Part shown: positions 33,292 through 46,647 of the stretch, in pieces | Layout of the letters: every line of letters starts with the position of its first letter | How positions within the stretch are numbered: the stretch's first letter is position 1 | Origin: an uncultured Spirochaetaceae bacterium | Lineage (GTDB): Bacteria > Myxococcota_A > UBA9160 > UBA4427 | Direction of reading: 5' to 3' | NCBI GenBank assembly: GCA_964435795.1 | Contig: CAYTAT010000003.1 | Coordinates: 128,981 to 192,980, forward strand | Length of the DNA: 64,000 nt | Program-made: the position numbers and the translations under genes | Notes under the pieces: generated by a model | What the model was told of the DNA's origin: nothing | The model's input: the letters and a program-made list of their open reading frames with translations, nothing else | Database searches by the model: none

Positions 33292-33633
33292 TCAGACGTT
33301 CAGCATCAGACGACGCCACCACGGCAGCGAATCGACCCGAAATCGCGACGTCGCACCCGTCAGGACAGGACGAGCCTTGGCGCCGGCAGTGGAGTGCTCC
33401 AGTGCACGCTCGAAGAGAATCTCTTCCGTCTCGATCCTCAGAGGATCGAGGACGCAGCAGTTGTCGACGGGGCAGATCAGCTGGCATTGTGCCCGAGCAT
33501 GGTAGCCGACACATTCCGTACAAATAGTCGGATCGATCACGTAGCGTCCGCTACCCGGGTGGATGGCCCCTCCCGGGCATACGGATTCGCAGGCCCCGCA
33601 ATTGACGCATCGTTCATTGATCATGGTCGCCAT
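33292..33633 (-). CDS. YfhL-type 4Fe-4S dicluster ferredoxin
   Basis: ORF 33292..33633. Shows CVNCGACESVCP and CTECVGYHARAQCQLICPV. Confidence 0.8.
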   Translation of the reverse strand: MATMINERCVNCGACESVCPGGAIHPGSGRYVIDPTICTECVGYHARAQCQLICPVDNCCVLDPLRIETEEILFERALEHSTAGAKARPVLTGATSRFRVDSLPWWRRLMLNV

Positions 33634-33783: not shown

Positions 33784-33840
33784 ATCCCATGCTGGCCGCT
33801 CTCCGCCGGGTGACCCGGCGGAGAGCGGCCAGCATGGGAT
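33784..33840. repeat. 57-bp perfect palindrome (28-nt arms, 1-nt centre)
   Basis: ATCCCATGCTGGCCGCTCTCCGCCGGGT g ACCCGGCGGAGAGCGGCCAGCATGGGAT. It is also visible as two ORF-track entries on opposite strands that both start MLAALRRVTRRRAASMG. Confidence 0.95.
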
Positions 33841-34077
33841 CGAAATGTCGCCGCCGGGGGCGGAGAAAGACGAAAGTCCGGGGGCTGAATCAGGCCACCC
33901 GCAGGCGCAGTGCAAGAGGCGAAGGAACTCATAGGCCTCGCCTGGATAATGCAATCCTATGCTATTCTGGGCATTCGAAGCTGGAGATCAAGTAGCCGTG
34001 ATGAATTCTTCCTGGATACTGACTCTCAAAATCCACCGCTGGCGGGAGATGGAAAATTACCCGTCGCCCCCGCCCTG

Positions 34078-34746
34078 ATGACAACAGACCCCGAAAAGAA
34101 AGCCGGACGCCCGCGCGGAGAACAGATCGCCCTGCGCAAGCGCATGAAGGAACGCCTTCTCGAAGGCGCCCTAAATGCCGTGGCGGCCCGCGGTATCGGC
34201 AAGCTCACCATGGGCGATGTGAGCGAGTTTGCGGGTGTCTCCAGGGGAACGACCTATCGCTACTTCTCGAATGTCGAAGCAGTACTGATCGCACTCGGCC
34301 GCAGGGAAGCCGAACTTTTCGAGCAGCGGGTATGGGATGAACTCGGCGAGGCCCCCGGGCCGGGCGGCGACCGCCTCGGTCGGGTCCTGGACCTGATTGA
34401 TCGACTCGCACGGGATCATCCCCTGATTCGACGGCTTCCGGAAACGGATCCGGGCTTCGCTCTCGTCTCTCTTCGCGAGCGTTTCCCCGATATTCGCGAG
34501 ACCTTTCAGCGCCTCCTCGTACCTCAACTTCAGGGAACTGAGGTGGTCACGAAACTCGGCGTGGAGCCGGAACAGATCGCCAACTGGGCGGCCAGAATGA
34601 TGATCTCGATGTTCCTGATACCGGAATCGGATCCCCCCGACACGACGGACTCTCTTCGATCTGCCTACCGGGCACTGGCTGGAGAGGGGGCCGATCCGCA
34701 GGATCCGGAAGACTCTGGGGCCGAGGAGGAGCCGAGTACGTCTTGA
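34078..34746 (+). CDS. TetR/AcrR family transcriptional regulator
   Basis: ORF 33910..34746 trimmed to ATG 34078. HTH is LTMGDVSEFAGVSRGTTYRYF. Confidence 0.85.
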   Translation: MTTDPEKKAGRPRGEQIALRKRMKERLLEGALNAVAARGIGKLTMGDVSEFAGVSRGTTYRYFSNVEAVLIALGRREAELFEQRVWDELGEAPGPGGDRLGRVLDLIDRLARDHPLIRRLPETDPGFALVSLRERFPDIRETFQRLLVPQLQGTEVVTKLGVEPEQIANWAARMMISMFLIPESDPPDTTDSLRSAYRALAGEGADPQDPEDSGAEEEPSTS

Positions 34747-34754
34747 ACGCCGAC

Positions 34755-34976
34755 CTAGCTCTGCGACTCCCGATGCAGAGAAATCGCGTCTTCGGGGCAA
34801 TTCTCGGCCGCCCGGCGCACCTTTTTCTCCAAGGGGCCGCAAACCAGGGCCAACTTGACGACGCCGTGCCCCTGCTCATCCTCATCGAAAACGTCCGGGG
34901 CGAGTACATAGCAGCGCCCGTGCCCCACACAGGCATCACCGTCGTGCTCGACCTTCCAGTTTTCCTCGTCGGACAT
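34755..34976 (-). CDS. small ferredoxin, P450 redox partner type
   Basis: ORF 34755..34979. CVGHGRC...CP cluster motif. Its ATG overlaps the P450 stop (TGATG). Confidence 0.8.
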   Translation of the reverse strand: MSDEENWKVEHDGDACVGHGRCYVLAPDVFDEDEQGHGVVKLALVCGPLEKKVRRAAENCPEDAISLHRESQS

Positions 34977-36181
34977 CACTGCGATCCGTATTCGAATTCC
35001 AGCGGCAGGTAGGTGACTTCCCGAATGGCATGACTATAGCTGGGCTGCTCACCTTTTCGAATCGCGTAGTCGGGTATGCGCCGGTGAAATTCTTCGAGGG
35101 CCACGCGCAACTCCATGCGCGAGAGATGCGAGCCGAGGCAACGGTGGGGACCGCCGCCGAAGGCGACGTGTTTATTCGGTGTCCGCTGAAAATCCACCTC
35201 CTGGGCATTGGCAAATTGCTCGTCATCCGTATCCGCCGAACCGAGGACCAGGGTCACGGCCTCGCCCTGCTTCAATTCGACTCCACCGATCGTATAGTCC
35301 TCTTTCAGGATTCGGACGACCTGCACCACGGGGGTCTCCCAGCGCAGCATCTCTTCGATCGCCGACGGAAGCGCGGAGGGATCATCCACCAGCATTCTGC
35401 GCCGTTCGGGATGCTGGGCCAGATAAGAGAACATACAGCCCAGGGTGGATGTAACGGTGTCGAGCCCCCCCAGAAGAAAGAGGTAGCAGATGTCCAGAAT
35501 CTCCTCGCGATTCATCCGCTCTCCGGCCACCTCGGCCGTAATGAAGAGACTCAGAAGATTGTCACCAGGCGCTTTCTCGAGTTCGGTCAGAAATTTTTCG
35601 AAATAGGCGTAGATCTTCTCGCCGGTTTCGTTACGGATCTTCGCTTCCTCCTCGGAAGAGTCGGCGAGAGGGCGAATGATCGAATTCTTGAGGGTCAGGA
35701 AATACTCGAGATCCCCTTCAGGCAGACCCATGAGGCGCAGAAAGACGGTACTGGGGTAGGGGATCGCGAAAGCGCTATTGAACTCACATCCACCGTCATC
35801 GGCGAAGCGATCGATCAAATTGCGGGCGATCTCACGAACATCTTTCTCCATCTTGAGCACGTTCCGATTGGAGAAGAGCGGGTCGAGAAATTTGCGATAC
35901 TTCACCTGTTCGGGCGGGTCCACGTGCAGGGGGATCAGCGGCCGCTTGTTGCCGATCAATCCAACGGGCATGACGGCCGAAAAGATCTCCGGATGCCTCA
36001 ATGCGAAGATCACATCCTCATATCTCGAGAGGCAGACCGAGCCTCCCGGAATCGGTTTCCCCACTGGACATTGTTCTCGAATACGCTGGAAGGTCGGTTG
36101 GGGGTGCGCGGCAACCGCTGCGTCAAAGAAATTGATCTCACCCGATTCGACCTCGGGCAACGCATCGTTCTGAGAACTCAT
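34976..36181 (-). CDS. cytochrome P450
   Basis: ORF 34976..36265 trimmed to ATG 36181. Heme loop FGGGPHRCLGSHL, EMLRW (ExxR) and LLGGLDT I-helix. Confidence 0.9.
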   Translation of the reverse strand: MSSQNDALPEVESGEINFFDAAVAAHPQPTFQRIREQCPVGKPIPGGSVCLSRYEDVIFALRHPEIFSAVMPVGLIGNKRPLIPLHVDPPEQVKYRKFLDPLFSNRNVLKMEKDVREIARNLIDRFADDGGCEFNSAFAIPYPSTVFLRLMGLPEGDLEYFLTLKNSIIRPLADSSEEEAKIRNETGEKIYAYFEKFLTELEKAPGDNLLSLFITAEVAGERMNREEILDICYLFLLGGLDTVTSTLGCMFSYLAQHPERRRMLVDDPSALPSAIEEMLRWETPVVQVVRILKEDYTIGGVELKQGEAVTLVLGSADTDDEQFANAQEVDFQRTPNKHVAFGGGPHRCLGSHLSRMELRVALEEFHRRIPDYAIRKGEQPSYSHAIREVTYLPLEFEYGSQ

Positions 36182-36267
36182 ATTAGTCACTCCGATTCGA
36201 CCGGAAAAGCCCGACTCCCAAGTGTCACCGGATCCTGGAAGAAGTCCCCCCCCGGAAAAGAGCACCG

Positions 36268-36320
36268 AATGCGATCTGAAATGCGATCTGAAATGCGATC
36301 TGAAATGCGATCTGAAATGC
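36268..36320. repeat. tandem repeat, 12 bp x 4.4 (AATGCGATCTGA)
   Basis: Four perfect copies plus a 5-nt partial copy, abutting the LuxR stop codon and 87 nt upstream of the P450 ATG. Each full unit contains GATC. Confidence 0.95.
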
Positions 36321-36841
36321 TAGTCGAGGTAGCCGAGCCGAAAACCGAGCGCGACGAGTCCCGCGCGTGTCTTGACTCCCAACTTGATCCGCATCTTTTC
36401 AACGTGACTGCGCAGTGTAGATTCGCGGATTCCCAATTTTTCAGCTGCTGAGAAGGTCGCCCGGCCTTCCGCGAGGCATTGCAGCACCTCCCGCTCCCGG
36501 GGCGTCAGACGCTCGCCGCTCCCGGGGTGTTCCCCGACACCACGACCGAGTGCGCATACCACGACGCCGTTCACGGGAGTGCAGGAGAGCTGATGTCGCA
36601 CTCCGTCGAGCTTGAACTGACTATGGCGCGACCGATCCAGGCCGGCCCTCAACAATTTCCCCACGCAACCCGTCGCACAGGGAAGCCCCTTCGCGGTCGG
36701 CAGACCGCCAACCACATCCCAGCAACTCTGACCCCTCACCTCTCCCATCAGGCGCTGAGAACGAACGTTCTGGTTGATGACTCGCCCATCCTCCTGAGTG
36801 ATGAGAACGGCGGGGACATCGTCAGTTTGCATACTCTCCAT
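36320..36841 (-). CDS. LuxR-family regulator with PAS-like, Cys-rich N-terminal domain
   Basis: ORF 36320..36841. Strong GGAGGGAGAGG before the ATG. C-terminal LTPREREVLQCLAEGRATFSAAEKLGIRESTLRSHVEKMRIKLG. N-terminal AVLITQEDGRVINQNVRSQRLMG is PAS-like. Confidence 0.8.
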   Translation of the reverse strand: MESMQTDDVPAVLITQEDGRVINQNVRSQRLMGEVRGQSCWDVVGGLPTAKGLPCATGCVGKLLRAGLDRSRHSQFKLDGVRHQLSCTPVNGVVVCALGRGVGEHPGSGERLTPREREVLQCLAEGRATFSAAEKLGIRESTLRSHVEKMRIKLGVKTRAGLVALGFRLGYLD

Positions 36842-36916
36842 GGAATCCTCTCCCTCCAGTCAGTAGCTACCGAATCGGCGGAGTCAGCAGATCGCGACCA
36901 ACGAAGCCTACTATGG

Positions 36917-37357
36917 CTATCCAGTTCCCTCTAGCTCCGGCTGAGAAGCAGCCTCACGCATGACACTACAAAGATACTCGATTCTTTCCCGCCAGAGCCG
37001 CTCAAGGCTCGAACCCCAGGAGGGCCCGCTCAATTCGGAAAGAACCCCCAAAACCGACTCTGTCCAGAGATCATACATTTCGTCACTGACATCGAATTCC
37101 ACATGCTTGGCACCGAGCAGTTTCAGGTTGGACACGAGCCAGTCCGTTCCTTCGGAACACATGACCATGCCGGTCAACGTCTCGTGGAGCATATCCTCCT
37201 TGACCGCTCGGCAATGGGCCCCGAAGAGTCTTGCAATCCGGGTGTCACTCTGAAAAAAACGCTCGTAAATTCGTTCAGCGATTCGCGGTTCTCGTTCACT
37301 GAGAAGATTCCATTGCGCCGCAATGATTTCAGAGTCATCGCTATTCACCGAAGACAC
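36917..37357 (-). CDS. globin-like single-domain protein
   Basis: ORF 36917..37357. IYERFFQSDTRIARLF resembles the B/C/CD region with a CD Phe. LLGAKHVEFDVSDEMYDLWTESVLGVL resembles the F/G region with a proximal His. Fold not verified. Confidence 0.55.
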   Translation of the reverse strand: MSSVNSDDSEIIAAQWNLLSEREPRIAERIYERFFQSDTRIARLFGAHCRAVKEDMLHETLTGMVMCSEGTDWLVSNLKLLGAKHVEFDVSDEMYDLWTESVLGVLSELSGPSWGSSLERLWRERIEYLCSVMREAASQPELEGTG

Positions 37358-38443
37358 GAACCCGCCCCATTGATCCTCGGGCGGTCCGCATATTGGGAAT
37401 TATCAACGCCTTCCCACCCAAGTCTGTGAGATACTGTCAAAGCCTTCATCCCGAGGGTATTTCACCCGGAGAGTCCTCGGGATCCAGTGAACATCAGAAC
37501 TGGTTCCTAATCCCACTGACTACCCCGAATAGGGCCACCATACCACGAAATAGAACAAAAGAGACAAATTAACAGAAATCATCTCAAATAAATAATAACC
37601 CTATCGCGATTCCCCCTAGGGAAAACTCGGGAATCGGCGGCTGTGGGGAGAGCGGGATGAAGAAGGCGAGAGAGTCTGACGCAATCCGGCTTCGCTGCTG
37701 GCTGGGTCGGGCTCTGACGCCCCCCCGGCGAGGCATGATGGGTAATGAGCGAGTGTTTCACGTCAGTAGACCTGCTTCTGCCTTGAACGGGGCCCTCCCA
37801 CGCGACGGGTCTCGACGGCCTGGGGCTGTCATCGCCGACCCCCAAATGCCGACGAAAGCGGAAATTCAATCGGCACAAGCGCCGGCTGAGACGGCATCGA
37901 GCTTCGCCAGCGAAGAGTGTATGGGCGGGGGCTTCTGCGAGCGGGAAGTCGAAAAGGAGGGCCGGCGGAGGCCATGAGCATGCGGGAGCATCGGGGCCGA
38001 TGGAGCCGGTGTCGGACGGGGACCCCCTCACCCACACACCCTCACGCGTGGTGCGAAGCCCCGGGGCGGCCTTCGGCCCCTACATCCGCTCAACGGCCGA
38101 CGCAGGAGTTGCCCCGATCGAATAGGCTGGATGGAAGCTCCCGACAAGACGAAACTCTCCTCGGAAGTGGCTCGGCAGGACCGGGGCCGCGACCCCATTT
38201 TGACGAAGGTAGCTGGCATTCAGGATCGACTCGCAACCGGCGACGAACGCATAAAGCCCCTGAGGATCTCGCGAGATCCTGCTCCTGCGAGAACTTCGGT
38301 CTGTGCGGCCACGGCCCCCGGCGGAGGGTCCCCCGGTCGGCGAGTGGCGGCAAGATCCTTGAGTGGGGTATCACAATACGGCGTCGGTGAGATCCGCCAA
38401 CACTTTCCCCCAACGAGGCATCGCCCGGCAATAGGGCAACAGT

Positions 38444-39304
38444 ATGAATAATAGCTACAGCAGCGGGATGAGATTCGGCCCGTCCAGCACTCCTCAAGTG
38501 ATCCGAAACCTGCTGATCGCGAACCTGGCGGTCTTCGTCGGCCAGCTCGTAATCCCTCCCCTCAGTGACCTGGGAGTCGTGATTCCCGAACGGGTCTGGC
38601 TGCATCTCGAATTGTGGCGCCCCTTCACTTATCTATGGCTGCATAGCGTCGGTGGCCTGCCCCTGCACCTCGCCATCAATATGTTCATGCTCTGGATGTT
38701 CGGCTCGGAGCTCGCCCTCGACTGGGGCGAGAAACGCTTTCTTCGCTACTACCTCACTTGCGGTATCGGGGCGGGCTTCCTGATCGCCACCCTGCCCTTT
38801 CTGCCAATGCTGATCGGCTGGGGCGAGTGGACAACGCAGCTCGACCTCAGCACCCTCGGCGCATCGGGGGCGGTCATCGCCGTGGTGCTCGCCTACTCCC
38901 TCACATGGCCCTACCAGCGCATCCAACTCCTCTTTCCACCCATCGCCATCAAGGCGATCTGGCTGATTCCAATCATCCTCATCTTCGAATTCATGGGCGG
39001 TCGGGAGAACGTCTCCCATCTCGGCCATCTCGGAGGTCTGTTGATCGGATGGATCTACCTCATCCAGGAGGGCCGCACGCCCGGCATTCCCACCCCCAAC
39101 TCCCTCTGGCACGACTTTCGAGGTAGGAAGAACCAGAAATCGCAACTGGGCAAGAGCCTCCGCAAGCCACCGAGGGCCGTGCGACCTCCTCCAAAACGAT
39201 CGCTCAAGCGCCGTTACGAGCGCCGCACCATGCGCAAGAAGCTGCGTTCGCTTTCGGGTGAGGGAAGTCCGAAGTCGGAGAAGAACGAAGACGAGAAGAG
39301 CTGA
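38444..39304 (+). CDS. rhomboid family intramembrane serine protease
   Basis: ORF 38444..39304. Shows WRPFTYLWLH, GASGAVIAVV (catalytic Ser) and HLGGLLIG (catalytic His). Very basic C-terminal tail. Confidence 0.9.
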   Translation: MNNSYSSGMRFGPSSTPQVIRNLLIANLAVFVGQLVIPPLSDLGVVIPERVWLHLELWRPFTYLWLHSVGGLPLHLAINMFMLWMFGSELALDWGEKRFLRYYLTCGIGAGFLIATLPFLPMLIGWGEWTTQLDLSTLGASGAVIAVVLAYSLTWPYQRIQLLFPPIAIKAIWLIPIILIFEFMGGRENVSHLGHLGGLLIGWIYLIQEGRTPGIPTPNSLWHDFRGRKNQKSQLGKSLRKPPRAVRPPPKRSLKRRYERRTMRKKLRSLSGEGSPKSEKNEDEKS

Positions 39305-39608
39305 GAAGAGAAGAGCTGAGGCGCGGCAAAACTATGACTTTCGCTCTGGACTTTCCACGCGGAAAAGGCTCCGCCATATGGCCGAGGCAGGCGGTGGGGG
39401 GTGCCCGGTACGCTCTTCGGGGCTGTACGGAAAAACACTCGCTCGCAGGGATTCGAGGCGAGACATTGCCGCCACTCGTGTGGGCCAGAGCATGGAGGGG
39501 TGCCGCCCCGGCAGAGCTCTCAGCTCAGACACGGGCGAGCGAGCGGGAATGTGGCAGGGGTCCTGGAGCCGTGAACCGCGGCCCAACCCATCCGGGAGGT
39601 TCAGGGAT

Positions 39609-39818
39609 ATGCCGACTCATTTCGAGGTGATCGAGGATGACTGCATCGGTTGCGCTCTCTGTATTGAACGAGCCCCAGAGAACCTGGAGATCGTCCGGGA
39701 TGAGAGTATCGCGCACATCATCGCCCAGCCGTCGAATGACGAAGAGGTACTCGCTTGTATGGAGGCCGCCGAATATTGTCCCATGGGCGCACTCTCCGTC
39801 CGTAGCTCGAAATCCTGA
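39609..39818 (+). CDS. small single-cluster ferredoxin
   Basis: C-terminal 69 codons of ORF 39258..39818, from ATG 39609: MPTHFEVIEDDCIGCALCIERAP...EYCPMGAL. Confidence 0.65.
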   Translation: MPTHFEVIEDDCIGCALCIERAPENLEIVRDESIAHIIAQPSNDEEVLACMEAAEYCPMGALSVRSSKS

Positions 39819-40136
39819 GAACTCTCACGACTGCGGTTTCGCGCTGACAAAGGCCGGCCATCCGCCGATTCTCGCTGTCGGCCCAGGGGCGCAGAGAGTT
39901 CGGGGCGGCAGACCTCTGCGGGGAAGCCACCCAATGGCGCGCTCCGGAGAATCTGAGCGCAGCCGACCCGGAGCCCTCGGTGCGCACCCGCCCATCAAAT
40001 CCAGGATACCGCCTCGACTCGAGGAGAGCCCCCCGAAGCTCGGCCGGAGAGCGACCTTCGTTCGGCTTCGGAGGCCCGTGATGTATTGTATTTTGCCCCT
40101 CGATCCCGGGAATCAGAGCTTCAAGGGGGCGCGCCC

Positions 40137-40754
40137 ATGAGCGGAAGCAAGATCATTCCCTTCGATCAGAGTCGGCGGGTATTGCGCAGGGTCTTCCCGG
40201 GGAAGATCACCCTCGCCGTACTGATCTTCGCGATTTTCGACGCGATGATGCTCGTCGGCATGACGACCATCTTCCTGCTCACGCGGGCGGCGACGGGAGA
40301 GGCCTGGCCCCCGACGGGACAGCCCTGGTTCCCGCCGGATCAGATCGCAATCAATACGGGGGCCCTGCTCGCGAGCGGCCTGCTGGTCTTCCTGTCGGGC
40401 AGAGCCCGGAAGAAACGAGAGGCCCGCGCCGCGCCGCTGCTTTTCACGGCAATGCTGCTCGGAATCTTCTTCCTCTTCTTCCAGGCTGCCCTCTGGATCA
40501 TGCTCGCAAGCGAGGGACTGAACCTGACCTCGAGCCAGCACGGCATCTTCTTCTGCGTGCTTGCGGCATTCTACGCCGCCAATCTCCTGACCGCCCTGAT
40601 CTTCCTCTTCATCATCTGGTTGCGCCTGAAGCCCCTGGGCGACGAGAATGGCGAAGACCGTGGATTCCTCGACTCCAGTACCTTTTCGGCGGCACGCATC
40701 TTCTGGTACTTCGTTATGGCCATCTGGCCCATTCTCTGGCTCTTCTTATACTGA
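40137..40754 (+). CDS. heme-copper oxidase subunit III family protein (NorE-like)
   Basis: ORF 40086..40754 trimmed to ATG 40137. Five TM segments. FFLFFQAALW and IFWYFVMAIWPILWLFLY are CoxIII-like. Confidence 0.65.
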   Translation: MSGSKIIPFDQSRRVLRRVFPGKITLAVLIFAIFDAMMLVGMTTIFLLTRAATGEAWPPTGQPWFPPDQIAINTGALLASGLLVFLSGRARKKREARAAPLLFTAMLLGIFFLFFQAALWIMLASEGLNLTSSQHGIFFCVLAAFYAANLLTALIFLFIIWLRLKPLGDENGEDRGFLDSSTFSAARIFWYFVMAIWPILWLFLY

Positions 40755-41608: not shown

Positions 41609-43936
41609 TTACGCAGCCCAATCCTTTTCGTAGACCGTCCACTCGCCCTCTTCAGAATCGGCCTCTTCCTTGAGCTTGGTTCCACTCTTTACGATGAACC
41701 AGATCAAGGGCAGAACGCCGCCGACGATGAAGAGAGTTCCGCCGATCGCCCTGAAATAGGTCAGGGTCTTCCAGACCGTTCCCGTCAGGATTTCCTGGGA
41801 GCGGGCGTACCAGAGTCCGTCCTGCACCACGATCATCAACTGATACAAACCAACGGGGAAGAGATCGAGGAACATCATCAATGCCACTCCGCCATTCAGT
41901 GACCAGAAGGCCGTACGAACCAGCTTGGGATTCCAGGCTTCCTTGGAGATCAGATGCTGGATGCAGAAGAGCATGCCACCCAATGCGATATTCCCCTTGA
42001 CCCCGAACATCGCAGCATGGGCGTGATTACCGGTCATATAAGTCGCATGCTCGTAATAGTTCACGATGGGCAGATTGATCAGCGATCCGAATACTCCGGC
42101 TCCGAAGATATTCCAGAAGTTCACGGCCAGGACGAATAGCCAGACGCCTTCCATCACGAATAGCTGTCGACCCTGGACAAGATTCACATTCGCCCGGGAG
42201 GCCTCCGACTTCATGCGCCATGCATCGAGGGTCAGCAGGAGAAGAGGTAGAACCTGAAGCGTGGAGAAGACACCGCCTACGGCGATGATCCCCGTGGGCT
42301 TCGCGATCCAGTAGAAGTTATGCGAAATGCCAAGTGTGGCAGTCACGAGGAACATCATGACGGCGAGGAAGATCACCCGTTCGCACATCACGCGCGAAAT
42401 CAGGCCCATCTGGACGAGGATATAACCCACGATGACAGTCGTGAATACTTCAAAGGTCACCTCAACCCACATATGGACAACCATCCAGCGCCAATAGTCG
42501 GAAACCGCGAAATTCTGCTCCGGCGAAATCATCAGACCAAAGAAGAGAAACGCGACCATGATTCCACTTCCATAGAGGAGCCATGAAGGAACCGACCAGA
42601 TGTTCCGCGCGGTGAGCCACGGCCTGACCGCACGGTAGATGATGAAGATCCAGAGAGCGAATGAACTCAGCAGGGTGTACTGGAAGAATCGCCCGATCTC
42701 CATGAATTCCCAGCCCTGGCTTCCAAACCAATACGCGGTCGATCCGGTGATCATCCCCGTCTGCCCCGCGTAGATGCCAACCAAGGCACCCGCGCCGGTA
42801 ACCATGCAGATCGCGAATAGCGCGTTAATCAGGAATAGCTGTCCGTTCGGGACCTTGGAAATCCTCGGCAGGAAGAAAATCGTATAGCCCACCCAGGCCA
42901 TAAAGAACCAGTAGATCTGGAATATCGTGTGGTAGCTGCGCAGAACGGTGAAGGGAATGATCTCGCCCAGGGAAATCCCGAATGGACGAACGAAGTCCAT
43001 GGAAGCGAGCATACCCGCGAGCACCTGGCATCCGAAGAGGATGATCGAGAAGACGAAGAATTTATACGTCGCCCTCTGGGTCGCGCGCACGCGCCCCTCT
43101 TCAAGGTCATTCGTAGTAAGGGATGTGCCATCTCCTTCAAAGGCGTCCCCCTGTTGCTTGAATTGGCCGTATATATAGAGGACGGCAGCAATACCGAGAA
43201 ACAATCCAAAGATCGAGACGAAGCTCCAGAGCCACGTCTGGCCGGTGGCCGTATTGCCGGCGTCGGGATCGTAGGGCCAATTATGGGTATAGCTATAGTC
43301 CTGGTTCGGACGATTCGCAGCAGAGACCCAGGCCCCCCAGAAGAAGAAGGCGGTGAGGTCGCGGAGATCGGTAGGATCGGAGATGTATCCCGCTGGATCG
43401 AAGGCTTCCTCATACTCGGCATCATTGAACATGGCCGTGTAGTGGCTGATCAGGTTCTGAAAGGCCTGGATCTGCGCCTCATTGATAACGATCTTCTCGG
43501 CTTTCTCATCCCAGCCGTTGAAATGAAGTTCCCGGCGCACCCTCGCCGCGATCGCATCCCGATCGTATTGGGTGACATTCGAAGTGCTGGTGGACAACTC
43601 CTCTTCATAGAATTCCCGCATCGTCACGACAGTTCGGTGAAGGGCGTCAGCGGTAAAGTCGGGACCGCGTTCCGCACCGTCACCCCAGAACGACCCATAT
43701 CCCATCAGGCCCCTCAGATGAAATACTTCCTGCCCGTGCTTGATTTCTTCGCGGGTAATCACCACCTCTCCAGTAGTGGCCGACGTGAAGGCCTCAAGGG
43801 GAGGAGCTCCCGTATAGGTTTGGGTACCGAGATAGATCAGCCCGGTGATGCAGATCGCCGAAACGATCAGGAAATGCACCCACCAGGTCTGCTTGTCCTG
43901 CAGTATTTGTGCAACATTCCGGCCCTCATCACTCAT
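41609..43936 (-). CDS. norB: quinol-dependent nitric oxide reductase (qNOR, NorZ-type fused NorB)
   Basis: ORF 41609..43936, 775 aa. N-terminal TM plus periplasmic extension, then a heme-copper oxidase core with HNFYW and GNHAHAAMFGV. Confidence 0.9.
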   Translation of the reverse strand: MSDEGRNVAQILQDKQTWWVHFLIVSAICITGLIYLGTQTYTGAPPLEAFTSATTGEVVITREEIKHGQEVFHLRGLMGYGSFWGDGAERGPDFTADALHRTVVTMREFYEEELSTSTSNVTQYDRDAIAARVRRELHFNGWDEKAEKIVINEAQIQAFQNLISHYTAMFNDAEYEEAFDPAGYISDPTDLRDLTAFFFWGAWVSAANRPNQDYSYTHNWPYDPDAGNTATGQTWLWSFVSIFGLFLGIAAVLYIYGQFKQQGDAFEGDGTSLTTNDLEEGRVRATQRATYKFFVFSIILFGCQVLAGMLASMDFVRPFGISLGEIIPFTVLRSYHTIFQIYWFFMAWVGYTIFFLPRISKVPNGQLFLINALFAICMVTGAGALVGIYAGQTGMITGSTAYWFGSQGWEFMEIGRFFQYTLLSSFALWIFIIYRAVRPWLTARNIWSVPSWLLYGSGIMVAFLFFGLMISPEQNFAVSDYWRWMVVHMWVEVTFEVFTTVIVGYILVQMGLISRVMCERVIFLAVMMFLVTATLGISHNFYWIAKPTGIIAVGGVFSTLQVLPLLLLTLDAWRMKSEASRANVNLVQGRQLFVMEGVWLFVLAVNFWNIFGAGVFGSLINLPIVNYYEHATYMTGNHAHAAMFGVKGNIALGGMLFCIQHLISKEAWNPKLVRTAFWSLNGGVALMMFLDLFPVGLYQLMIVVQDGLWYARSQEILTGTVWKTLTYFRAIGGTLFIVGGVLPLIWFIVKSGTKLKEEADSEEGEWTVYEKDWAA

Positions 43937-44334
43937 GATCGGATTCCTTGCTATTCATGGGTTGGGTATTACTGGAGTAACAGATCTGTTTATCTAGTAT
44001 TTGATTTTACAACGATCCGAACCGACCCGGCCTCTGTCATACGACGGGAAGCCCCCGTTCAAGATCCGGAATCTGAAAAATTCACCAGTGGCCCCCGGAG
44101 GATGACGATCGGAGTGCCGCGGATGGATCGAACCGATCCACGGACACCATGCAGCCCTCTGCGGCCACTCCGATGGACGAAAAAGTCCTCCGGTGAGGAG
44201 GAATCCCCACCCCGCGCCTTCGAGACGCTAGTGCCCCTGGGGGATAGGCTTGGGCCTCCGGAGGGCAGGGCGAACCCCACGCCACCTGGACTTCTGCCGA
44301 AGCCAGGCCCTGCCCCGCACCCGCGCCGGGGAAG

Positions 44335-45297
44335 TCAGTTCGTCAGTCCGGCCTGCTGATACTTCGAAAGAGTTCTATCCGTGATCAATCCGACTCGCTC
44401 GAGTTGCGGGTAGGCGTAGTCGCGGAAGGGATTCGGCTGGGCCTTCACGAATTCCGGATCCCTCATCCTCGAGGCCGCCTCATCCGCCGCTCGAACGGGA
44501 TCAATGCCCAGATCCTCGTAGATCACCGCGATCGGATCGACGGGATTGCCTTCCCGCAGTTGGGGGGTGGTGGCCAACAATGTCATCGCCGTCCAGGCGA
44601 AGTCCTCCAGGCGATCCCGATCCTCTTCGTTCATCTTGGGGATCTCATCCTTCATGTAGATCAGCCCATAGGATACGTGCCGAGCCTCATCCTGTGCGGT
44701 CAGTTCGACCACCTTGCGGAAGACCTCATCATTCGTGAGTTTCATCATCGTCTTGAATGAGCCCATCGCCAGGCTTTCCGCGATGACCTGCATCCCGATA
44801 CATTTCATCTGCCAAAGATCCGCCGTAAGGACGGCGTCCAGCAGGGCCTTCAGCCCGGGCATGATCGGGTAGATTCGATCCAATCGCTGGATGTAGCGAT
44901 GAAAGACCTCGACATGACGAGCCTCATCGACGACCTGGGTGGATGCGTAGAGCTTTCCATCCATGTCGGGGACGACCTCCACCAATTGCCCGCAGATCAT
45001 CATCGCCCCCTGCTCTCCATGGAGAAAGGTAGAGAGAAGATGGGCCGACTTCCGCTTCGCGAGTTCGATCTGCTTCTCCCGCGGCAGAGCTTTCACAAAG
45101 TCGAAAGGCTCGGCATTCGGAGCACTCATATCGCCCACCTGGGTGGGATCGGTCTCGATCTCCCAGGGGATGTCCGTAGCGGCGTTCCACTGCTCTTTCT
45201 TCGCAACCTCGTAGAGATCTCGCAGCGGCTTGATATTCGTATCGTAATCGTAACGCCAGAGTGCCTTGACCGTGGTGTCAATCGTTTCAAAGTTCAT
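44335..45297 (-). CDS. ferritin-like diiron-carboxylate protein (R2/AurF/desaturase-like), function unknown
   Basis: ORF 44335..45297. Two DEARH motifs (VVDEARHVEVF, AQDEARHVSYG) plus upstream Glu positions (HGEQGA, IAESLA) give the E / ExxH / E / ExxH diiron pattern. Confidence 0.6.
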   Translation of the reverse strand: MNFETIDTTVKALWRYDYDTNIKPLRDLYEVAKKEQWNAATDIPWEIETDPTQVGDMSAPNAEPFDFVKALPREKQIELAKRKSAHLLSTFLHGEQGAMMICGQLVEVVPDMDGKLYASTQVVDEARHVEVFHRYIQRLDRIYPIMPGLKALLDAVLTADLWQMKCIGMQVIAESLAMGSFKTMMKLTNDEVFRKVVELTAQDEARHVSYGLIYMKDEIPKMNEEDRDRLEDFAWTAMTLLATTPQLREGNPVDPIAVIYEDLGIDPVRAADEAASRMRDPEFVKAQPNPFRDYAYPQLERVGLITDRTLSKYQQAGLTN

Positions 45298-45702
45298 CTG
45301 TCTATACTCTCCAATTCCTTCAGTCTATGCGGAACGCACAATAGAAGCGAAGCCCTCTACCGAAGCCCCCTCGTTTTCCTGAAGCGAGAAACATCCGGCA
45401 TTTTTTTGACTCTATACGCTCTCGGCCGCACGGCGCCTCGGCCATATGACGGGTTCGGAGTGCCCCGAATTCCCATTCCGAGACCCTCCAAACGCCTCGA
45501 TCCAACGCCGCCGCCGACGGATTTCGACGGATTCGCGGTCCGCAACGGGGAGGACCGCCCCATCCCGCTCGACGAGGCCAATCCCATCAAAGAGAAGTCG
45601 AGGGCCCGCACTTCGCCCGACTCGAAGTCAGGAGCCTCGGGGTCGATCCGACGCATGGGATGCCGCTCCGGGCCTGACTTCGATTCCCATATCGCGATGG
45701 GA

Positions 45703-46647
45703 TCAGTCGAGCAGCGGAGCGACCTGGCTGCCAAAAGCCCGCATCTGATCGAGAAGTTCCGCGAGTGAGCGGTTGCGAAAGCGAAGCTGCAGATGGTTGA
45801 CACCCATCGCGGCAAATTCGCGCAGGCTTTCGGCAATGAATTCGGGGCTTCCGCTGAGCACTTCGCCGTCGATCTCCCACATCGGCGTGCCGATGTAGAG
45901 GGGTTCCGTGATGGCGCCGATATCCAGGGGGTGATCGGCGAGAAAGCGGCTACGCGTCTCCGTCAGGATGGCGATATCCTGCCTCAATCCCCTTCGCCCC
46001 GCTCGCTGGGGAAGCCAGCCATCCCCGAGTTCTGCGGCTCGCCCCAGGGCAGCTCGCGAGGAACCGCCCACCCAGACCGGAATCCGGGACTGTCGTGGCC
46101 GGGGCGCCAGGCCCGCGTCGGAAACCGACCATCGTTCACCCCGATGGCTGGGAAACTCATGCTCGAATGCCTGACGAATCAGCGCAATAGCCTCGTTGGC
46201 ATCCCGCCCGCGACTCTGGAAATCCGCTCCCAGGAATTCGAACTCCCCCTGCAGATGCCCGACACCCACACCCAGGATCACGCGCCCCCCCGACAATTCA
46301 TCCAATGTCATGAATGCCTTCGCGGTGAGCAGGGGATGGCGGTGGGTCAGATTGTAGACGTGGGAGAGCAGGCGCACATTCCGGGTGATTCCGGCCAGAT
46401 AACCCAACGTGGCCACGGTATCGTACCAACGCGTTCTCATGCTCGATTGCCGTGATTTCGGAATCGCCGTGTGATCGCAAACCCCCAGGTAGAAGAAGCC
46501 ATTCGAATCCGCTTCCGAGGCGATCTCAGCCATGGCATCCGTGCCGGCAGACAACTCCCAGGGCTCGGCGTAGAGGCTGCTGATCGATTGGATCGGCAAC
46601 TGCATGCCGTAGACGATTCGCCCGGATGGAATGATCGAAGTATTCAT
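45703..46647 (-). CDS. LLM-class (luciferase-like) oxidoreductase, F420-dependent-type
   Basis: ORF 45703..46647. YGMQLPIQS...FFYLGVCDHTAIP and VILGVGVGH resemble the Rv2161c-type LLM family. Confidence 0.75.
   Translation of the reverse strand: MNTSIIPSGRIVYGMQLPIQSISSLYAEPWELSAGTDAMAEIASEADSNGFFYLGVCDHTAIPKSRQSSMRTRWYDTVATLGYLAGITRNVRLLSHVYNLTHRHPLLTAKAFMTLDELSGGRVILGVGVGHLQGEFEFLGADFQSRGRDANEAIALIRQAFEHEFPSHRGERWSVSDAGLAPRPRQSRIPVWVGGSSRAALGRAAELGDGWLPQRAGRRGLRQDIAILTETRSRFLADHPLDIGAITEPLYIGTPMWEIDGEVLSGSPEFIAESLREFAAMGVNHLQLRFRNRSLAELLDQMRAFGSQVAPLLD

What the first reader, a model, noticed from the sequence alone, without database searches (positions are those of the whole stretch)
34755..37357. 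Same-strand module: globin-like protein, PAS/LuxR regulator, P450, ferredoxin
On the minus strand the order is:
- a 146-aa globin-like protein (37357 to 36917);
- a 75-nt gap;
- a regulator with a PAS-like Cys-rich sensor domain and a LuxR HTH (36841 to 36320);
- a direct-repeat array;
- a P450 (36181 to 34976);
- its ferredoxin, overlapping by TGATG.

A TetR gene converges on the end. A stand-alone heme globin placed immediately upstream of a transcription factor suggests a two-protein O2/NO/CO sensor controlling a P450 monooxygenase. A quinol NO reductase locus lies about 5 kb away. I am not aware of a described globin/LuxR pair governing a P450 system, but this is an inference from gene order only.
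Basis: inference. Interest (0 to 1): 0.65.

Follow-up and report, generated by a model that had tools for sequence, protein, structure and literature searches.

The report
Globin–regulator–P450 module beside NO dismutase
The gene row is real and conserved, but the regulator seems to be a self-contained sensor from an undescribed family that normally sits beside putative nitric-oxide dismutase genes, and the globin looks like a helper of the P450/ferredoxin enzymes, not the regulator's sensor.

Summary
The 146-aa protein models as a globin and keeps His F8, Tyr B10 and Phe CD1. The regulator models as PAS plus LuxR HTH (like EL222 and VqmA) and has five conserved Cys.

The order globin–regulator–P450–ferredoxin, with a convergent TetR, recurs in about five other lineages of uncultured "Deltaproteobacteria"/Myxococcota.

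The two-protein-sensor idea is poorly supported:
- The regulator family mostly occurs without any globin.
- One lineage keeps globin–P450–ferredoxin–TetR with the regulator reduced to a 35-codon remnant.
- Another lineage has an Rrf2 regulator in its place.

Family members typically sit upstream of qNor-like genes. All 13 of these, including the window's at 41609-43936, carry the putative NO-dismutase (Nod) signature. An 18-bp palindrome, RTCSGTCAWWTGACSGAY, precedes these genes at class-II activator distance. The window has three operator-like sites around nod and none before the P450.

Best reading: a Cys-cofactor NO/redox sensor, with the globin as gas-handling cargo for the P450/ferredoxin pair. 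The most novel reading not excluded is that Nod-made O2 is relayed through the globin to the P450.

The 12-nt repeat array varies between strains and is not conserved in other lineages.

The parts
36917..37357 (-). Single-domain globin, 146 aa, flavohaemoglobin-like (F-type). Tyr31 (B10), Phe45 (CD1) and His85 (F8) are invariant. The E7 position is Gln in most homologues and Lys53 here.
   Evidence: Pfam Globin; PDB sequence hits; AF2 and Foldseek; family alignment; best NCBIfam hit is the Hmp globin domain.
36320..36841 (-). One-component regulator. The N-terminal PAS-like domain spans residues 1-105 (36527-36841). C40, C55 and C87 are invariant; C59 and C96 are near-invariant. The C-terminal LuxR/GerE HTH spans residues 111-163.
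36268..36320 (.). Perfect 12-nt tandem repeat (GCATTTCAGATC-type unit, 4.4 copies). It starts at the last base of the regulator's stop codon and is followed by a G8 run. Copy number is 2 in a 99%-identical assembly, and the G run is 9 there.
   Evidence: Absent from the homologous intergenic regions of L001/2/3/52/53.
34976..36181 (-). Class I cytochrome P450 monooxygenase, 401 aa. It has the I-helix GGLDT acid-alcohol pair, EEMLR (ExxR) and the Cys-ligand loop FGGGPHRCLG.
   Evidence: Orthologues score 725-770 bits in L002/3/6/46/52/53.
34755..34976 (-). Small single-cluster ferredoxin (Fer4_15/Fer4_13; CxxHxxC...CP motif), translationally coupled to the P450 through a TGATG overlap.
33949..34746 (+). 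Convergent TetR-family regulator, conserved with the P450-ferredoxin pair.
33292..33633 (-). YfhL-type 2x[4Fe-4S] ferredoxin. It recurs next to the globin module and next to nod in related loci.
38444..39304 (+). Rhomboid protease gene, divergent from the globin. The synteny is conserved in L052, L053 and L054, and the gene lies downstream of the regulator in L015 and L019.
39369..39386 (+). Operator-like palindrome CTCCGCCATATGGCCGAG, followed by TACGCT 22 nt later. It lies 65 nt after the rhomboid stop, the same position as a strong site in L053 (24.4 bits).
39612..39818 (+). Second small ferredoxin (Fer4_13), followed by a COX3-like gene at 40086-40754.
41609..43936 (-). qNor-family protein with the putative NO-dismutase (Nod) signature. 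In G. stearothermophilus qNOR numbering: H560->N, E581->Q, and the quinol site H328->M, E332->R, D746->G.
   Evidence: Criteria from PMC3413370.
44032..44049 (-). Degenerate operator-like site TCCCGTCGTATGACAGAG, with TGTAAAAT at the family-typical offset, about 95 nt upstream of the nod start codon.
44335..45297 (-). AurF-like di-iron oxygenase gene immediately upstream of nod on the same strand.
45437..45454 (-). Operator-like palindrome ACCCGTCATATGGCCGAG (minus-strand reading), followed by TATAGAGT at the typical offset, about 140 nt upstream of the AurF-like gene.

Best explanation
The locus is a conserved module. It holds a single-domain haem globin, a one-component regulator (Cys-rich PAS plus LuxR HTH), a class I P450 monooxygenase, its small ferredoxin, and a convergent TetR.

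The regulator is a self-contained sensor. It belongs to a small, undescribed family whose members normally sit just upstream of putative NO-dismutase (nod) genes and other NO/haem-related genes. The family probably binds an 18-bp palindrome, RTCSGTCAWWTGACSGAY, centred near -42, as a dimeric class-II activator. It probably senses NO or redox/O2 through a cofactor held by its conserved cysteines, most likely an Fe-S cluster as in OrpR and NreB.

In this organism its likely targets are the nod neighbourhood (sites at 39369, 44032 and 45437). In relatives it probably also targets its own globin-regulator transcript. The P450-ferredoxin pair is probably controlled by TetR.

The globin is cargo, not the sensor. 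It is a gas-handling partner of the P450/ferredoxin pair, re-reduced by the ferredoxin. Most likely it scavenges NO as an NO dioxygenase, or it buffers O2, so that the NO-sensitive, O2-requiring P450 can work in a nitrosative, O2-poor setting.

Shown: the folds, the conserved residues, the gene orders, operator presence and geometry, and the Nod signature. Inferred: the cofactor, the signal, which protein binds the operator, and the globin's chemistry.
For: Folds.

Module conservation.

The regulator is independent of the globin:
- 34 genome loci hold a family member, and most have no globin.
- nod lies next to the regulator in 12 loci. NnrS, norBQD and HZS-alpha-like cytochromes are next to it in others.
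- The Cys set is invariant across the family.
- The domain occurs almost only in 160-190-aa proteins; there are 62 representative clusters in 1.84 billion proteins.

The globin is independent of the regulator:
- L046/47 hold only a regulator remnant.
- L044/45 have Rrf2 divergent from globin-Fdx-NnrS.
- L023 has P450-Fdx-globin.
- A Fer4_15 ferredoxin and a P450 lie within 3 kb of the globin in every context seen.

Operator:
- Strong sites (18.7-29.7 bits) occur in 17 genome loci plus L040, L043, L044 and L053, almost always beside the regulator gene. Shuffled 64-kb sequences reach at most 17.4 bits.
- Changes in the two half-sites are symmetric.
- A TAnnnT hexamer sits at a fixed 20-22-nt offset in about 20 of 24 sites.
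- A site lies in front of the globin in L053 (17 of 18 bases match a nod operator) and in L001.

Nod signature: found in 13 of 13 neighbouring qNor-like genes.

Precedents: Fe-S clusters in PAS domains (PMC8359166; PMC13478379). A split globin plus reductase operon under an NO sensor (PMC1274295).
Against: - No operator of family quality lies inside the window's own module. The best score there is 7.3 bits, in coding sequence. Control of the globin or of itself is therefore not shown for this organism.
- The three window sites are weak (13.0, 10.1 and 5.9 bits) and fall within the range of shuffled sequence. The relaxed pattern that makes two of them exact was written after seeing them.
Zn or disulfide chemistry is not excluded.
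- The signal could be O2 or redox state, not NO.
- The Rrf2 proteins in L044 and L053 do not reach the NsrR cut-off.
- The tight globin-regulator coupling in L002 (TGATG) would also fit an interacting pair.
- The globin-linked regulators form one clade, so part of the 'conservation' is shared descent.
Confidence: 0.5

Rival explanations
1. One reading: the globin is the gas-sensing subunit. It binds or modifies the PAS-LuxR protein, and the pair switches the P450 operon on or off in response to O2, NO or CO.
For: The globin and regulator are adjacent and in the same order in window, L001, L002/6, L003/53 and L052. In L002 the stop and start codons overlap as TGATG. The globin-linked regulators form a clade of their own.
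Against: - Most family members have no globin.
- The regulator has its own invariant Cys set.
- The globin persists where the regulator is deleted (L046/47), replaced by Rrf2 (L044) or 4 kb away (L023).
- No family operator lies before the P450. The conserved pre-P450 block survives loss of the regulator.
Confidence: 0.12
2. Intra-aerobic oxygen relay. Under anoxia with nitrite or NO, the neighbouring Nod-type enzyme dismutates NO to N2 and O2. The globin captures this O2 and hands it to the P450, and possibly to the AurF-like and luciferase-like oxygenases. The regulator senses NO and co-induces the set.
For: - nod carries the full Ettwig signature 4.3 kb from the globin, and again beside the globin-Fdx operon in L044.
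- The regulator family is the nod-associated LuxR type noted in bioRxiv 10.1101/2023.11.21.568154.
- O2-dependent enzymes recur beside family members and operators: P450s (L007, L041, L044), Rieske oxygenases (L040, L052), luciferase-like enzymes (L024 and the window) and an AurF-like enzyme (window).
- The P450 keeps its O2-activating Asp-Thr pair.
- There is precedent for Nod feeding monooxygenases in M. oxyfera and HdN1 (PMC3413370).
Against: NO dismutase activity of Nod proteins has never been shown biochemically (PMC3413370). There is no nitrite reductase in the window. Tyr B10 with Gln/Lys E7 fits NO dioxygenation as well as O2 storage. There is no direct evidence for a globin-P450 contact.
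Confidence: 0.2
3. Two unrelated units that are neighbours by descent. Globin-regulator would be an NO-stress unit, with the globin acting as an NO dioxygenase under the regulator. P450-ferredoxin-TetR would be an ordinary substrate-induced catabolic unit with no functional tie to the globin.
For: - A separate conserved promoter-like block lies before the P450.
- TetR is always present.
- Neighbours in relatives point to lipid or steroid catabolism: ChsH2/thiolase/ACAD in L002 and a KshA-like Rieske in L052.
- The module is confined to one clade.
Against: The globin stays with a Fer4_15 ferredoxin and a P450 in three rearranged architectures: L023 P450-Fdx-globin, L044 globin-Fdx plus a different P450, and L046 globin-P450-Fdx without the regulator. 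Such persistence is not expected of a chance neighbour.
Confidence: 0.15

Closest known systems
EL222 and VqmA (one-component PAS/LOV-LuxR transcription factors)
   Same: The same two-domain architecture and size class. They are the top structural matches to the AF2 model. Both bind DNA as dimers through a LuxR-type HTH.
   Different: There is no sequence similarity in the sensor domain. The LOV flavin-Cys motif is absent. Five conserved Cys are present here instead. The genomic association is with nod, globin and P450 genes.
Fe-S-containing PAS sensors: OrpR ([4Fe-4S], C52/C61/C65) and NreB
   Same: Conserved Cys lie in the helical and inner-sheet part of a PAS domain, including a C-x3-C pair (C55-x3-C59 here, C61-x3-C65 in OrpR). 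Both sense redox state, O2 or small molecules.
   Different: The output domains differ: a sigma-54 AAA+ domain in OrpR and a histidine kinase in NreB. Homology of the PAS domains was not shown. The cofactor here is untested.
Known NO-responsive regulators (NsrR/Rrf2, NorR, DNR/NnrR, HcpR) and their core regulon
   Same: The target set overlaps: NO reductase-family genes, nnrS and globins (PMC1274295). An Rrf2 protein takes the regulator's place in L044.
   Different: The fold and DNA motif are unrelated. None of those regulators is a PAS-LuxR protein.
DosR/DevR and LuxR/TraR-type activators
   Same: A NarL/LuxR HTH. An 18-20-bp palindromic operator with an A/T centre. A class-II position near -42, as for the lux and tra boxes (own knowledge; geometry).
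   Different: There is no receiver domain and no acyl-homoserine-lactone domain. The half-site sequence is different.
Single-domain F-type bacterial globins (Vitreoscilla Hb, Campylobacter Cgb, Hell's Gate globin I) and flavohaemoglobin Hmp
   Same: The 3-on-3 globin fold with Tyr B10, Phe CD1, His F8 and a polar E7. An NO-dioxygenase role paired with a separate reductase is established for this class (PMC3820574 abstract).
   Different: The globin is encoded with a P450 and a small ferredoxin, not with a flavin reductase. E7 is Lys in the window protein. No biochemical data exist.
Class I P450 systems with a TetR repressor (P450cam/CamR, CYP125/KstR type)
   Same: A P450 with an adjacent ferredoxin and a TetR. 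The best PDB relatives are CYP101, CYP143, CYP125 and CYP142.
   Different: No ferredoxin reductase is in the locus. A globin and a PAS-LuxR gene precede the P450. The substrate is unknown.
Putative NO dismutase (Nod) loci of M. oxyfera, HdN1 and marine oxygen-deficient-zone bacteria
   Same: The window's qNor-like gene and 12 others next to the regulator family carry the Nod substitutions. LuxR-type neighbours of nod were already noted, and contig PBRC01000062 is L025.
   Different: That report left the LuxR link unexplained. It did not describe the Cys-PAS domain, the operator, or a globin/P450 module.

Membership tests
Globin superfamily (3-on-3, haem-binding) | Globin fold | tested here: met
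   AF2 pLDDT 82. All 50 top PDB Foldseek hits shown are globins, best TM 0.76. Pfam Globin scores above the gathering cut-off.
Globin superfamily (3-on-3, haem-binding) | Proximal His F8, Phe CD1 and a distal B10/E7 pair | tested here: met
   H85, F45 and Y31 are invariant in 13 homologues and align to HGbI Tyr29 and the RHV His. E7 is Gln, Lys or Arg by helical register (inference).
Globin superfamily (3-on-3, haem-binding) | Haem actually bound | not testable with these tools
   Needs expression and spectroscopy.
Globin-coupled sensors | Globin domain fused to a transmitter domain (MCP, GGDEF, kinase and the like) | tested here: not met
   The protein is 146 aa with a single domain. Homologues are 136-208 aa.
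PAS-LuxR one-component regulators | N-terminal PAS fold and C-terminal LuxR/GerE HTH in one chain | tested here: met
LOV photoreceptors (EL222 type) | Flavin-binding GXNCRFLQ motif | tested here: not met
   The motif is absent from the alignment. There is no Pfam PAS or LOV hit.
Fe-S PAS sensors (NreB/OrpR type) | At least three conserved Cys within the PAS core | tested here: met
   C40, C55 and C87 are invariant. C59 and C96 are conserved in at least 90% of 47 sequences.
Fe-S PAS sensors (NreB/OrpR type) | Cys residues clustered in space and an Fe-S cluster present | not testable with these tools
Spectroscopy is needed.
Two-component response regulators of the NarL/DosR type | Receiver domain with a phospho-acceptor Asp | tested here: not met
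   There is no Response_reg hit. Only distant hits (E > 1e-6) carry PF00072.
Class I bacterial P450 monooxygenase | Cys-ligand loop FxxGxHxCxG, ExxR, and an I-helix acid-alcohol pair | tested here: met
   FGGGPHRCLG, EEMLR and GGLDT are in the translation. Pfam and PDB hits agree.
Class I bacterial P450 monooxygenase | Dedicated ferredoxin and ferredoxin reductase | tested here: inconclusive
   The ferredoxin is adjacent and translationally coupled. No reductase lies in the locus.
Putative NO dismutase (Nod) within the qNor family | One FeB His replaced by Asn, a catalytic-site Glu replaced by Gln, and the quinol-binding residues lost (Ettwig 2012) | tested here: met
   H560N, E581Q, H328M, E332R and D746G in the window protein and the same pattern in 12 relatives.
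Putative NO dismutase (Nod) within the qNor family | Catalyses 2 NO -> N2 + O2 | not testable with these tools
   This has not been shown biochemically for any Nod (PMC3413370).
NsrR (Rrf2) regulon | An NsrR orthologue controls the genes | tested here: not met
   No Rrf2 gene is in the window module. The Rrf2 proteins of L044 and L053 reach only the superfamily cut-off.

The most novel reading that the evidence does not exclude
The module is the oxygen-using end of an 'intra-aerobic' pathway. A previously uncharacterised Cys-PAS/LuxR sensor detects NO and switches on a putative NO dismutase. The O2 made from NO is caught by a dedicated globin and used by a P450 and other oxygenases in anoxic sediment or oxygen-deficient water. 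This would be the first regulator, operator and O2-carrier assigned to Nod.
Probability: 0.2. Interest if true: 0.9.

Novelty: new variant of a known kind. Interest (0 to 1): 0.7.

Why it matters
Whether Nod-type enzymes really make O2 from NO is a long-standing open question, and nothing is known about their regulation.

This work gives three testable handles:
- A small, well-defined regulator family with conserved cysteines.
- A precise 18-bp operator with class-II geometry in front of nod genes in at least two bacterial classes.
- A conserved globin–P450–ferredoxin module, next to nod in the two lineages where enough flanking sequence is available (the window and L044).

If the globin serves the P450, that would be an unreported way for bacteria to keep an oxygenase working under nitrosative, low-oxygen conditions. 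This holds whether the globin removes NO or supplies O2. It would also explain how 'aerobic' catabolism of lipids or steroid-like compounds can persist in oxygen-deficient zones.

Even the conservative result changes how LuxR-type genes next to nod should be annotated: they would be a new one-component NO/redox sensor family.

Tried and rejected
- **Repeat array as a binding site: rejected.** The 12-nt repeat is absent from the homologous intergenic regions of five other lineages. Its copy number differs (4 versus 2) between assemblies that are 99% identical. It looks like a slippage-prone minisatellite.
- **Family operator inside the module: not found.** The window, L002, L003, L006, L023, L041 and L046 have no site of family quality in the module. 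Only L053 (14.8 bits) and L001 (11.2 bits) have one, in front of the globin.
- **Relaxed pattern CSGYCAWWTGRCSG.** It gives 2 exact hits in the window against 0.07 expected. It was written after seeing those hits, so this is only suggestive. With one mismatch allowed the count is not significant.
- **Metagenome scan for more globin loci.** It returned only two loci, one of them the same population as the window.
- **Sequence searches with the Cys-PAS domain.** No PDB sequence hit and no Pfam or NCBIfam hit.
- **Rfam on 32-46 kb.** Only spurious miRNA matches to a perfect hairpin.
- **Naming the Rrf2 proteins as NsrR: not justified.** They fall below the cut-off.
- **More distant globins (33-36% identity).** They lie in unrelated contexts, so the P450 link holds only for the clade with at least 48% identity.
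- **Literature searches.** No described globin/LuxR/P450 system and no characterised nod regulator were found.
- **Other N-oxide genes.** No nitrite reductase or other N-oxide gene was found elsewhere in the window.
- **Cys geometry.** Model coordinates could not be read.


Full report
**Observation**

On the minus strand the window encodes the following:
- a 146-aa protein at 37357-36917;
- a 75-nt gap;
- a 173-aa protein at 36841-36320;
- a 138-nt spacer;
- a 401-aa P450 at 36181-34976;
- a 73-aa ferredoxin at 34976-34755, whose ATG overlaps the P450 stop as TGATG.

A TetR gene on the plus strand ends at 34746. A perfect 12-nt tandem repeat (4.4 copies, 36268-36320) starts at the regulator's stop codon.

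**The four proteins**

*Globin.* It passes the Pfam Globin cut-off only narrowly: 23.7 bits against 22. Other evidence is firmer. It matches solved globins by sequence (3wfw 2.7e-7, PA3967, Hell's Gate globin I). Its AlphaFold model (pLDDT 82) is all-helical. Every top Foldseek hit is a globin, the best being 3s1i at TM 0.76. In 13 homologues Tyr31 (B10), Phe45 (CD1) and His85 (F8) are invariant. By helical register, E7 is Gln in most homologues and Lys in the window protein (inference). The best NCBIfam match is the globin domain of NO-inducible flavohaemoprotein.

*Regulator.* It has a GerE/LuxR HTH at residues 111-163. Its N-terminal domain has no Pfam, NCBIfam or PDB sequence relative. The model (pLDDT 88) has PAS topology. 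Its best structural matches are the PAS/LOV-LuxR one-component factors EL222 and VqmA. Across 47 family members C40, C55 and C87 are invariant, and C59 and C96 are nearly so.

*P450.* It has the usual Cys loop, ExxR and an Asp-Thr I-helix pair. It resembles CYP101, CYP143, CYP125 and CYP142.

*Ferredoxin.* It is of the CxxHxxC...CP single-cluster type.

**Is the arrangement conserved?**

Yes, within one clade. The order globin-regulator-P450(-ferredoxin, with convergent TetR) occurs in these loci:

| Locus | Notes |
|---|---|
| L001 | |
| L002 (= L005) | globin and regulator overlap as TGATG |
| L003 | |
| L006 | |
| L052 | a KshA-like Rieske oxygenase is added |
| L053 | |

Globin identity to the window protein is 56-65% in these loci, and regulator identity is 57-66%. 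A divergent rhomboid gene upstream is also conserved. In a quick neighbour-joining tree the globin-linked regulators form one clade, sister to P450-linked members that lack a globin.

**The regulator does not need a globin**

A scan of one genome per species found 34 loci with full-length family members. Most have neither a globin nor the orthologous P450. Their neighbours are as follows:
- In 11 of these loci, plus L043, a roughly 790-aa qNor-like gene lies just downstream.
- Other loci carry NnrS (L009) or norB-norQ-norD with a Rieske oxygenase (L040).
- Large HZS-alpha-like cytochromes occur in L028, L033 and L040.
- Other P450s occur in L007 and L041, and a luciferase-like monooxygenase in L024.
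- A conserved roughly 300-aa protein without any family assignment occurs in eight loci.

An exhaustive search with the Cys-PAS domain found only 62 representative clusters among 1.84 billion proteins. Nearly all are 160-190 aa long. The domain is therefore essentially confined to this architecture.

**The globin does not need the regulator**

- In L046/L047 (two samples) the order is globin-P450-ferredoxin with a convergent TetR. The 257-nt spacer still encodes the first 35 or so residues of the regulator (EIPAVLIAESDGAPVVQNTPARRLVGAGRG) and then breaks off. This is a secondary deletion.
- In L044/L045 a 48%-identical globin heads a globin-ferredoxin-NnrS operon, divergent from an Rrf2 regulator. 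A nod gene, a TetR and a different P450 lie alongside.
- In L023 the order is P450-ferredoxin-globin, with the regulator 4 kb away.

In every context of the clade with at least 48% identity, a Fer4_15 ferredoxin and a P450 lie within 3 kb of the globin. More distant globins (33-36% identity) sit elsewhere.

**An operator for the family**

The spacers between the regulator and the qNor-like gene share an 18-bp palindrome, RTCSGTCAWWTGACSGAY. I built a weight matrix from ten sites. It finds strong sites (18.7-29.7 bits) in 17 genome loci and in L040, L043, L044 and L053. These sites almost always lie beside the regulator gene. Shuffled 64-kb sequences reach at most 17.4 bits. Variants change both half-sites symmetrically, for example GTCCGTCA/TGACGGAC versus ATCGGTCA/TGACCGAT. 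This is what a dimeric binding protein would produce.

In about 20 of 24 sites a TAnnnT hexamer follows 20-22 nt after the palindrome. That places the palindrome's centre near -42. This is the class-II geometry known for LuxR and TraR boxes (own knowledge). That the adjacent LuxR-type protein binds this site is an inference.

Sites also precede other genes:
- the unknown 300-aa protein;
- the HZS-alpha-like genes;
- a yfhL-P450 operon in L044;
- the globin itself in L053 (17 of 18 bases identical to the L022 nod operator) and in L001. There the site abuts the ribosome-binding site, which would fit autorepression.

**The window itself**

No site of family quality lies in the globin-P450 module. 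Three operator-like sites with the right downstream hexamer surround the qNor-like gene:
- 39369-39386. This is 65 nt after the rhomboid stop, the same position as a 24.4-bit site in L053.
- 44032-44049, upstream of the qNor-like gene, with TGTAAAAT at the typical offset.
- 45437-45454, upstream of an AurF-like oxygenase.

Their scores (10.1, 5.9 and 13.0 bits) are within the range of shuffled sequence, so they rest on position and geometry alone.

The spacer in front of the P450 holds a block conserved across lineages, including L046, which lacks the regulator. That points to TetR or promoter elements and not to the LuxR protein.

**The 'quinol NO reductase' is Nod-type**

I aligned the window protein to Geobacillus qNOR (3AYF). 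It has H560->N and E581->Q, and its quinol-site residues are changed: H328->M, E332->R and D746->G. H508, E512, E516 and H559 are kept. These are the substitutions that define putative NO dismutases (PMC3413370). All 12 qNor-like genes next to family members show the same pattern.

[quoted passage not shown] One of its contigs is my L025. I found no paper that describes the sensor domain, the operator, or a globin/P450 module.

**Mechanism**

I commit to the following, with confidence 0.5.
- The regulator is a self-contained one-component sensor. Its conserved cysteines hold a cofactor, most likely an Fe-S cluster. Precedents are OrpR (C52/C61-x3-C65, [4Fe-4S]) and NreB.
- It responds to NO or redox/O2 state and activates nod and associated genes from a class-II operator.
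- The globin is cargo of the P450/ferredoxin unit. It is re-reduced by the ferredoxin and removes NO or buffers O2 for an NO-sensitive, O2-dependent P450. Split globin-plus-reductase NO detoxification units under NO sensors have been proposed before (PMC1274295; PMC3820574).
- TetR probably gives substrate control of the P450.

A more novel reading (0.2) is that Nod-made O2 is relayed by the globin to the P450 and to other oxygenases that recur near family members and operators.

A fourth reading (0.15) is that the globin-regulator unit and the P450 unit are unrelated neighbours.

**Limits**

- All relatives are metagenome-assembled, and the organism is uncultured.
- The cofactor, the signal, the identity of the operator-binding protein, haem binding and Nod activity are all untested.
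- The tree is a quick distance tree.
- The Cys geometry could not be inspected.
- L003/L053 and L002/L006 are near-duplicates, so the module is seen in about five independent lineages besides the three rearranged ones.

Noticed in passing
All 12 homologues next to the regulator family carry it too.
   Followed up: yes
window 36268-36320 and the G-run about 20 nt downstream on the minus strand (about 36236-36243): The 12-nt repeat has 4 copies here and in L054 and L056, but 2 copies in L055 (GCA_024711745.1). The neighbouring G-run is 8 versus 9. Either this is a hypervariable spacer upstream of the P450, or the assemblies collapsed it.
   Followed up: partly
window 33784-33840: A perfect 28-nt inverted repeat with a 1-nt loop lies between the YfhL-type ferredoxin and TetR. 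It produces spurious miRNA hits in Rfam on both strands. Its function is unknown; it could be a bidirectional terminator or a repeat element.
   Followed up: no
window 37358-38443: A gap of about 1.09 kb between the globin and the divergent rhomboid gene has only low-quality ORFs. None has a Pfam, NCBIfam or Rfam hit, and GC drops to 0.53. A weak operator-like site lies at 38084.
   Followed up: partly
L008:6750-7688, L027:6668-7693, L036:532-1497, L034:1871-2875, L035, L032, L026, L029: A highly conserved protein of about 300 aa (60% identity or more across classes, over 100 invariant positions) has no Pfam or NCBIfam assignment. It sits next to family regulators, with the operator directly upstream in at least four loci.
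   Followed up: partly
L040:8016-11585, L033:5990-9280, L028:8281-11721: Large proteins (1100-1190 aa) with a hydrazine-synthase-alpha middle domain and cytochrome c motifs follow the regulator in non-anammox bacteria. The operator lies immediately upstream of them.
   Followed up: no
window 44335-45297 (-) and 45703-46647 (-): An AurF-like di-iron oxygenase and a luciferase-like monooxygenase lie directly upstream of nod on the same strand. An operator-like site sits between them, and an aldehyde dehydrogenase lies beyond.
   Followed up: partly
L046:4782-5037 (= L047:6451-6706): A 35-codon remnant of the regulator gene lies between the globin and the P450. This is a natural deletion of the regulator, identical in two metagenomes.
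   Followed up: yes
L006:4207-4516: The globin reading frame is split into two overlapping fragments in this MAG. This is either a frameshift or an assembly error.
   Followed up: no
L048:4131-6461: A 776-aa Ser/Thr kinase-globin-alpha/beta-hydrolase fusion lies next to a distant (36% identity) single-domain globin, a sigma-54 activator and a haem-copper oxidase operon.
   Followed up: no
L044:5798 and L044:297: Strong family operators (27.4 and 22.7 bits) precede a yfhL-P450 operon and nod. No family regulator lies within the 8.4 kb shown. An Rrf2 gene sits between them.
   Followed up: partly
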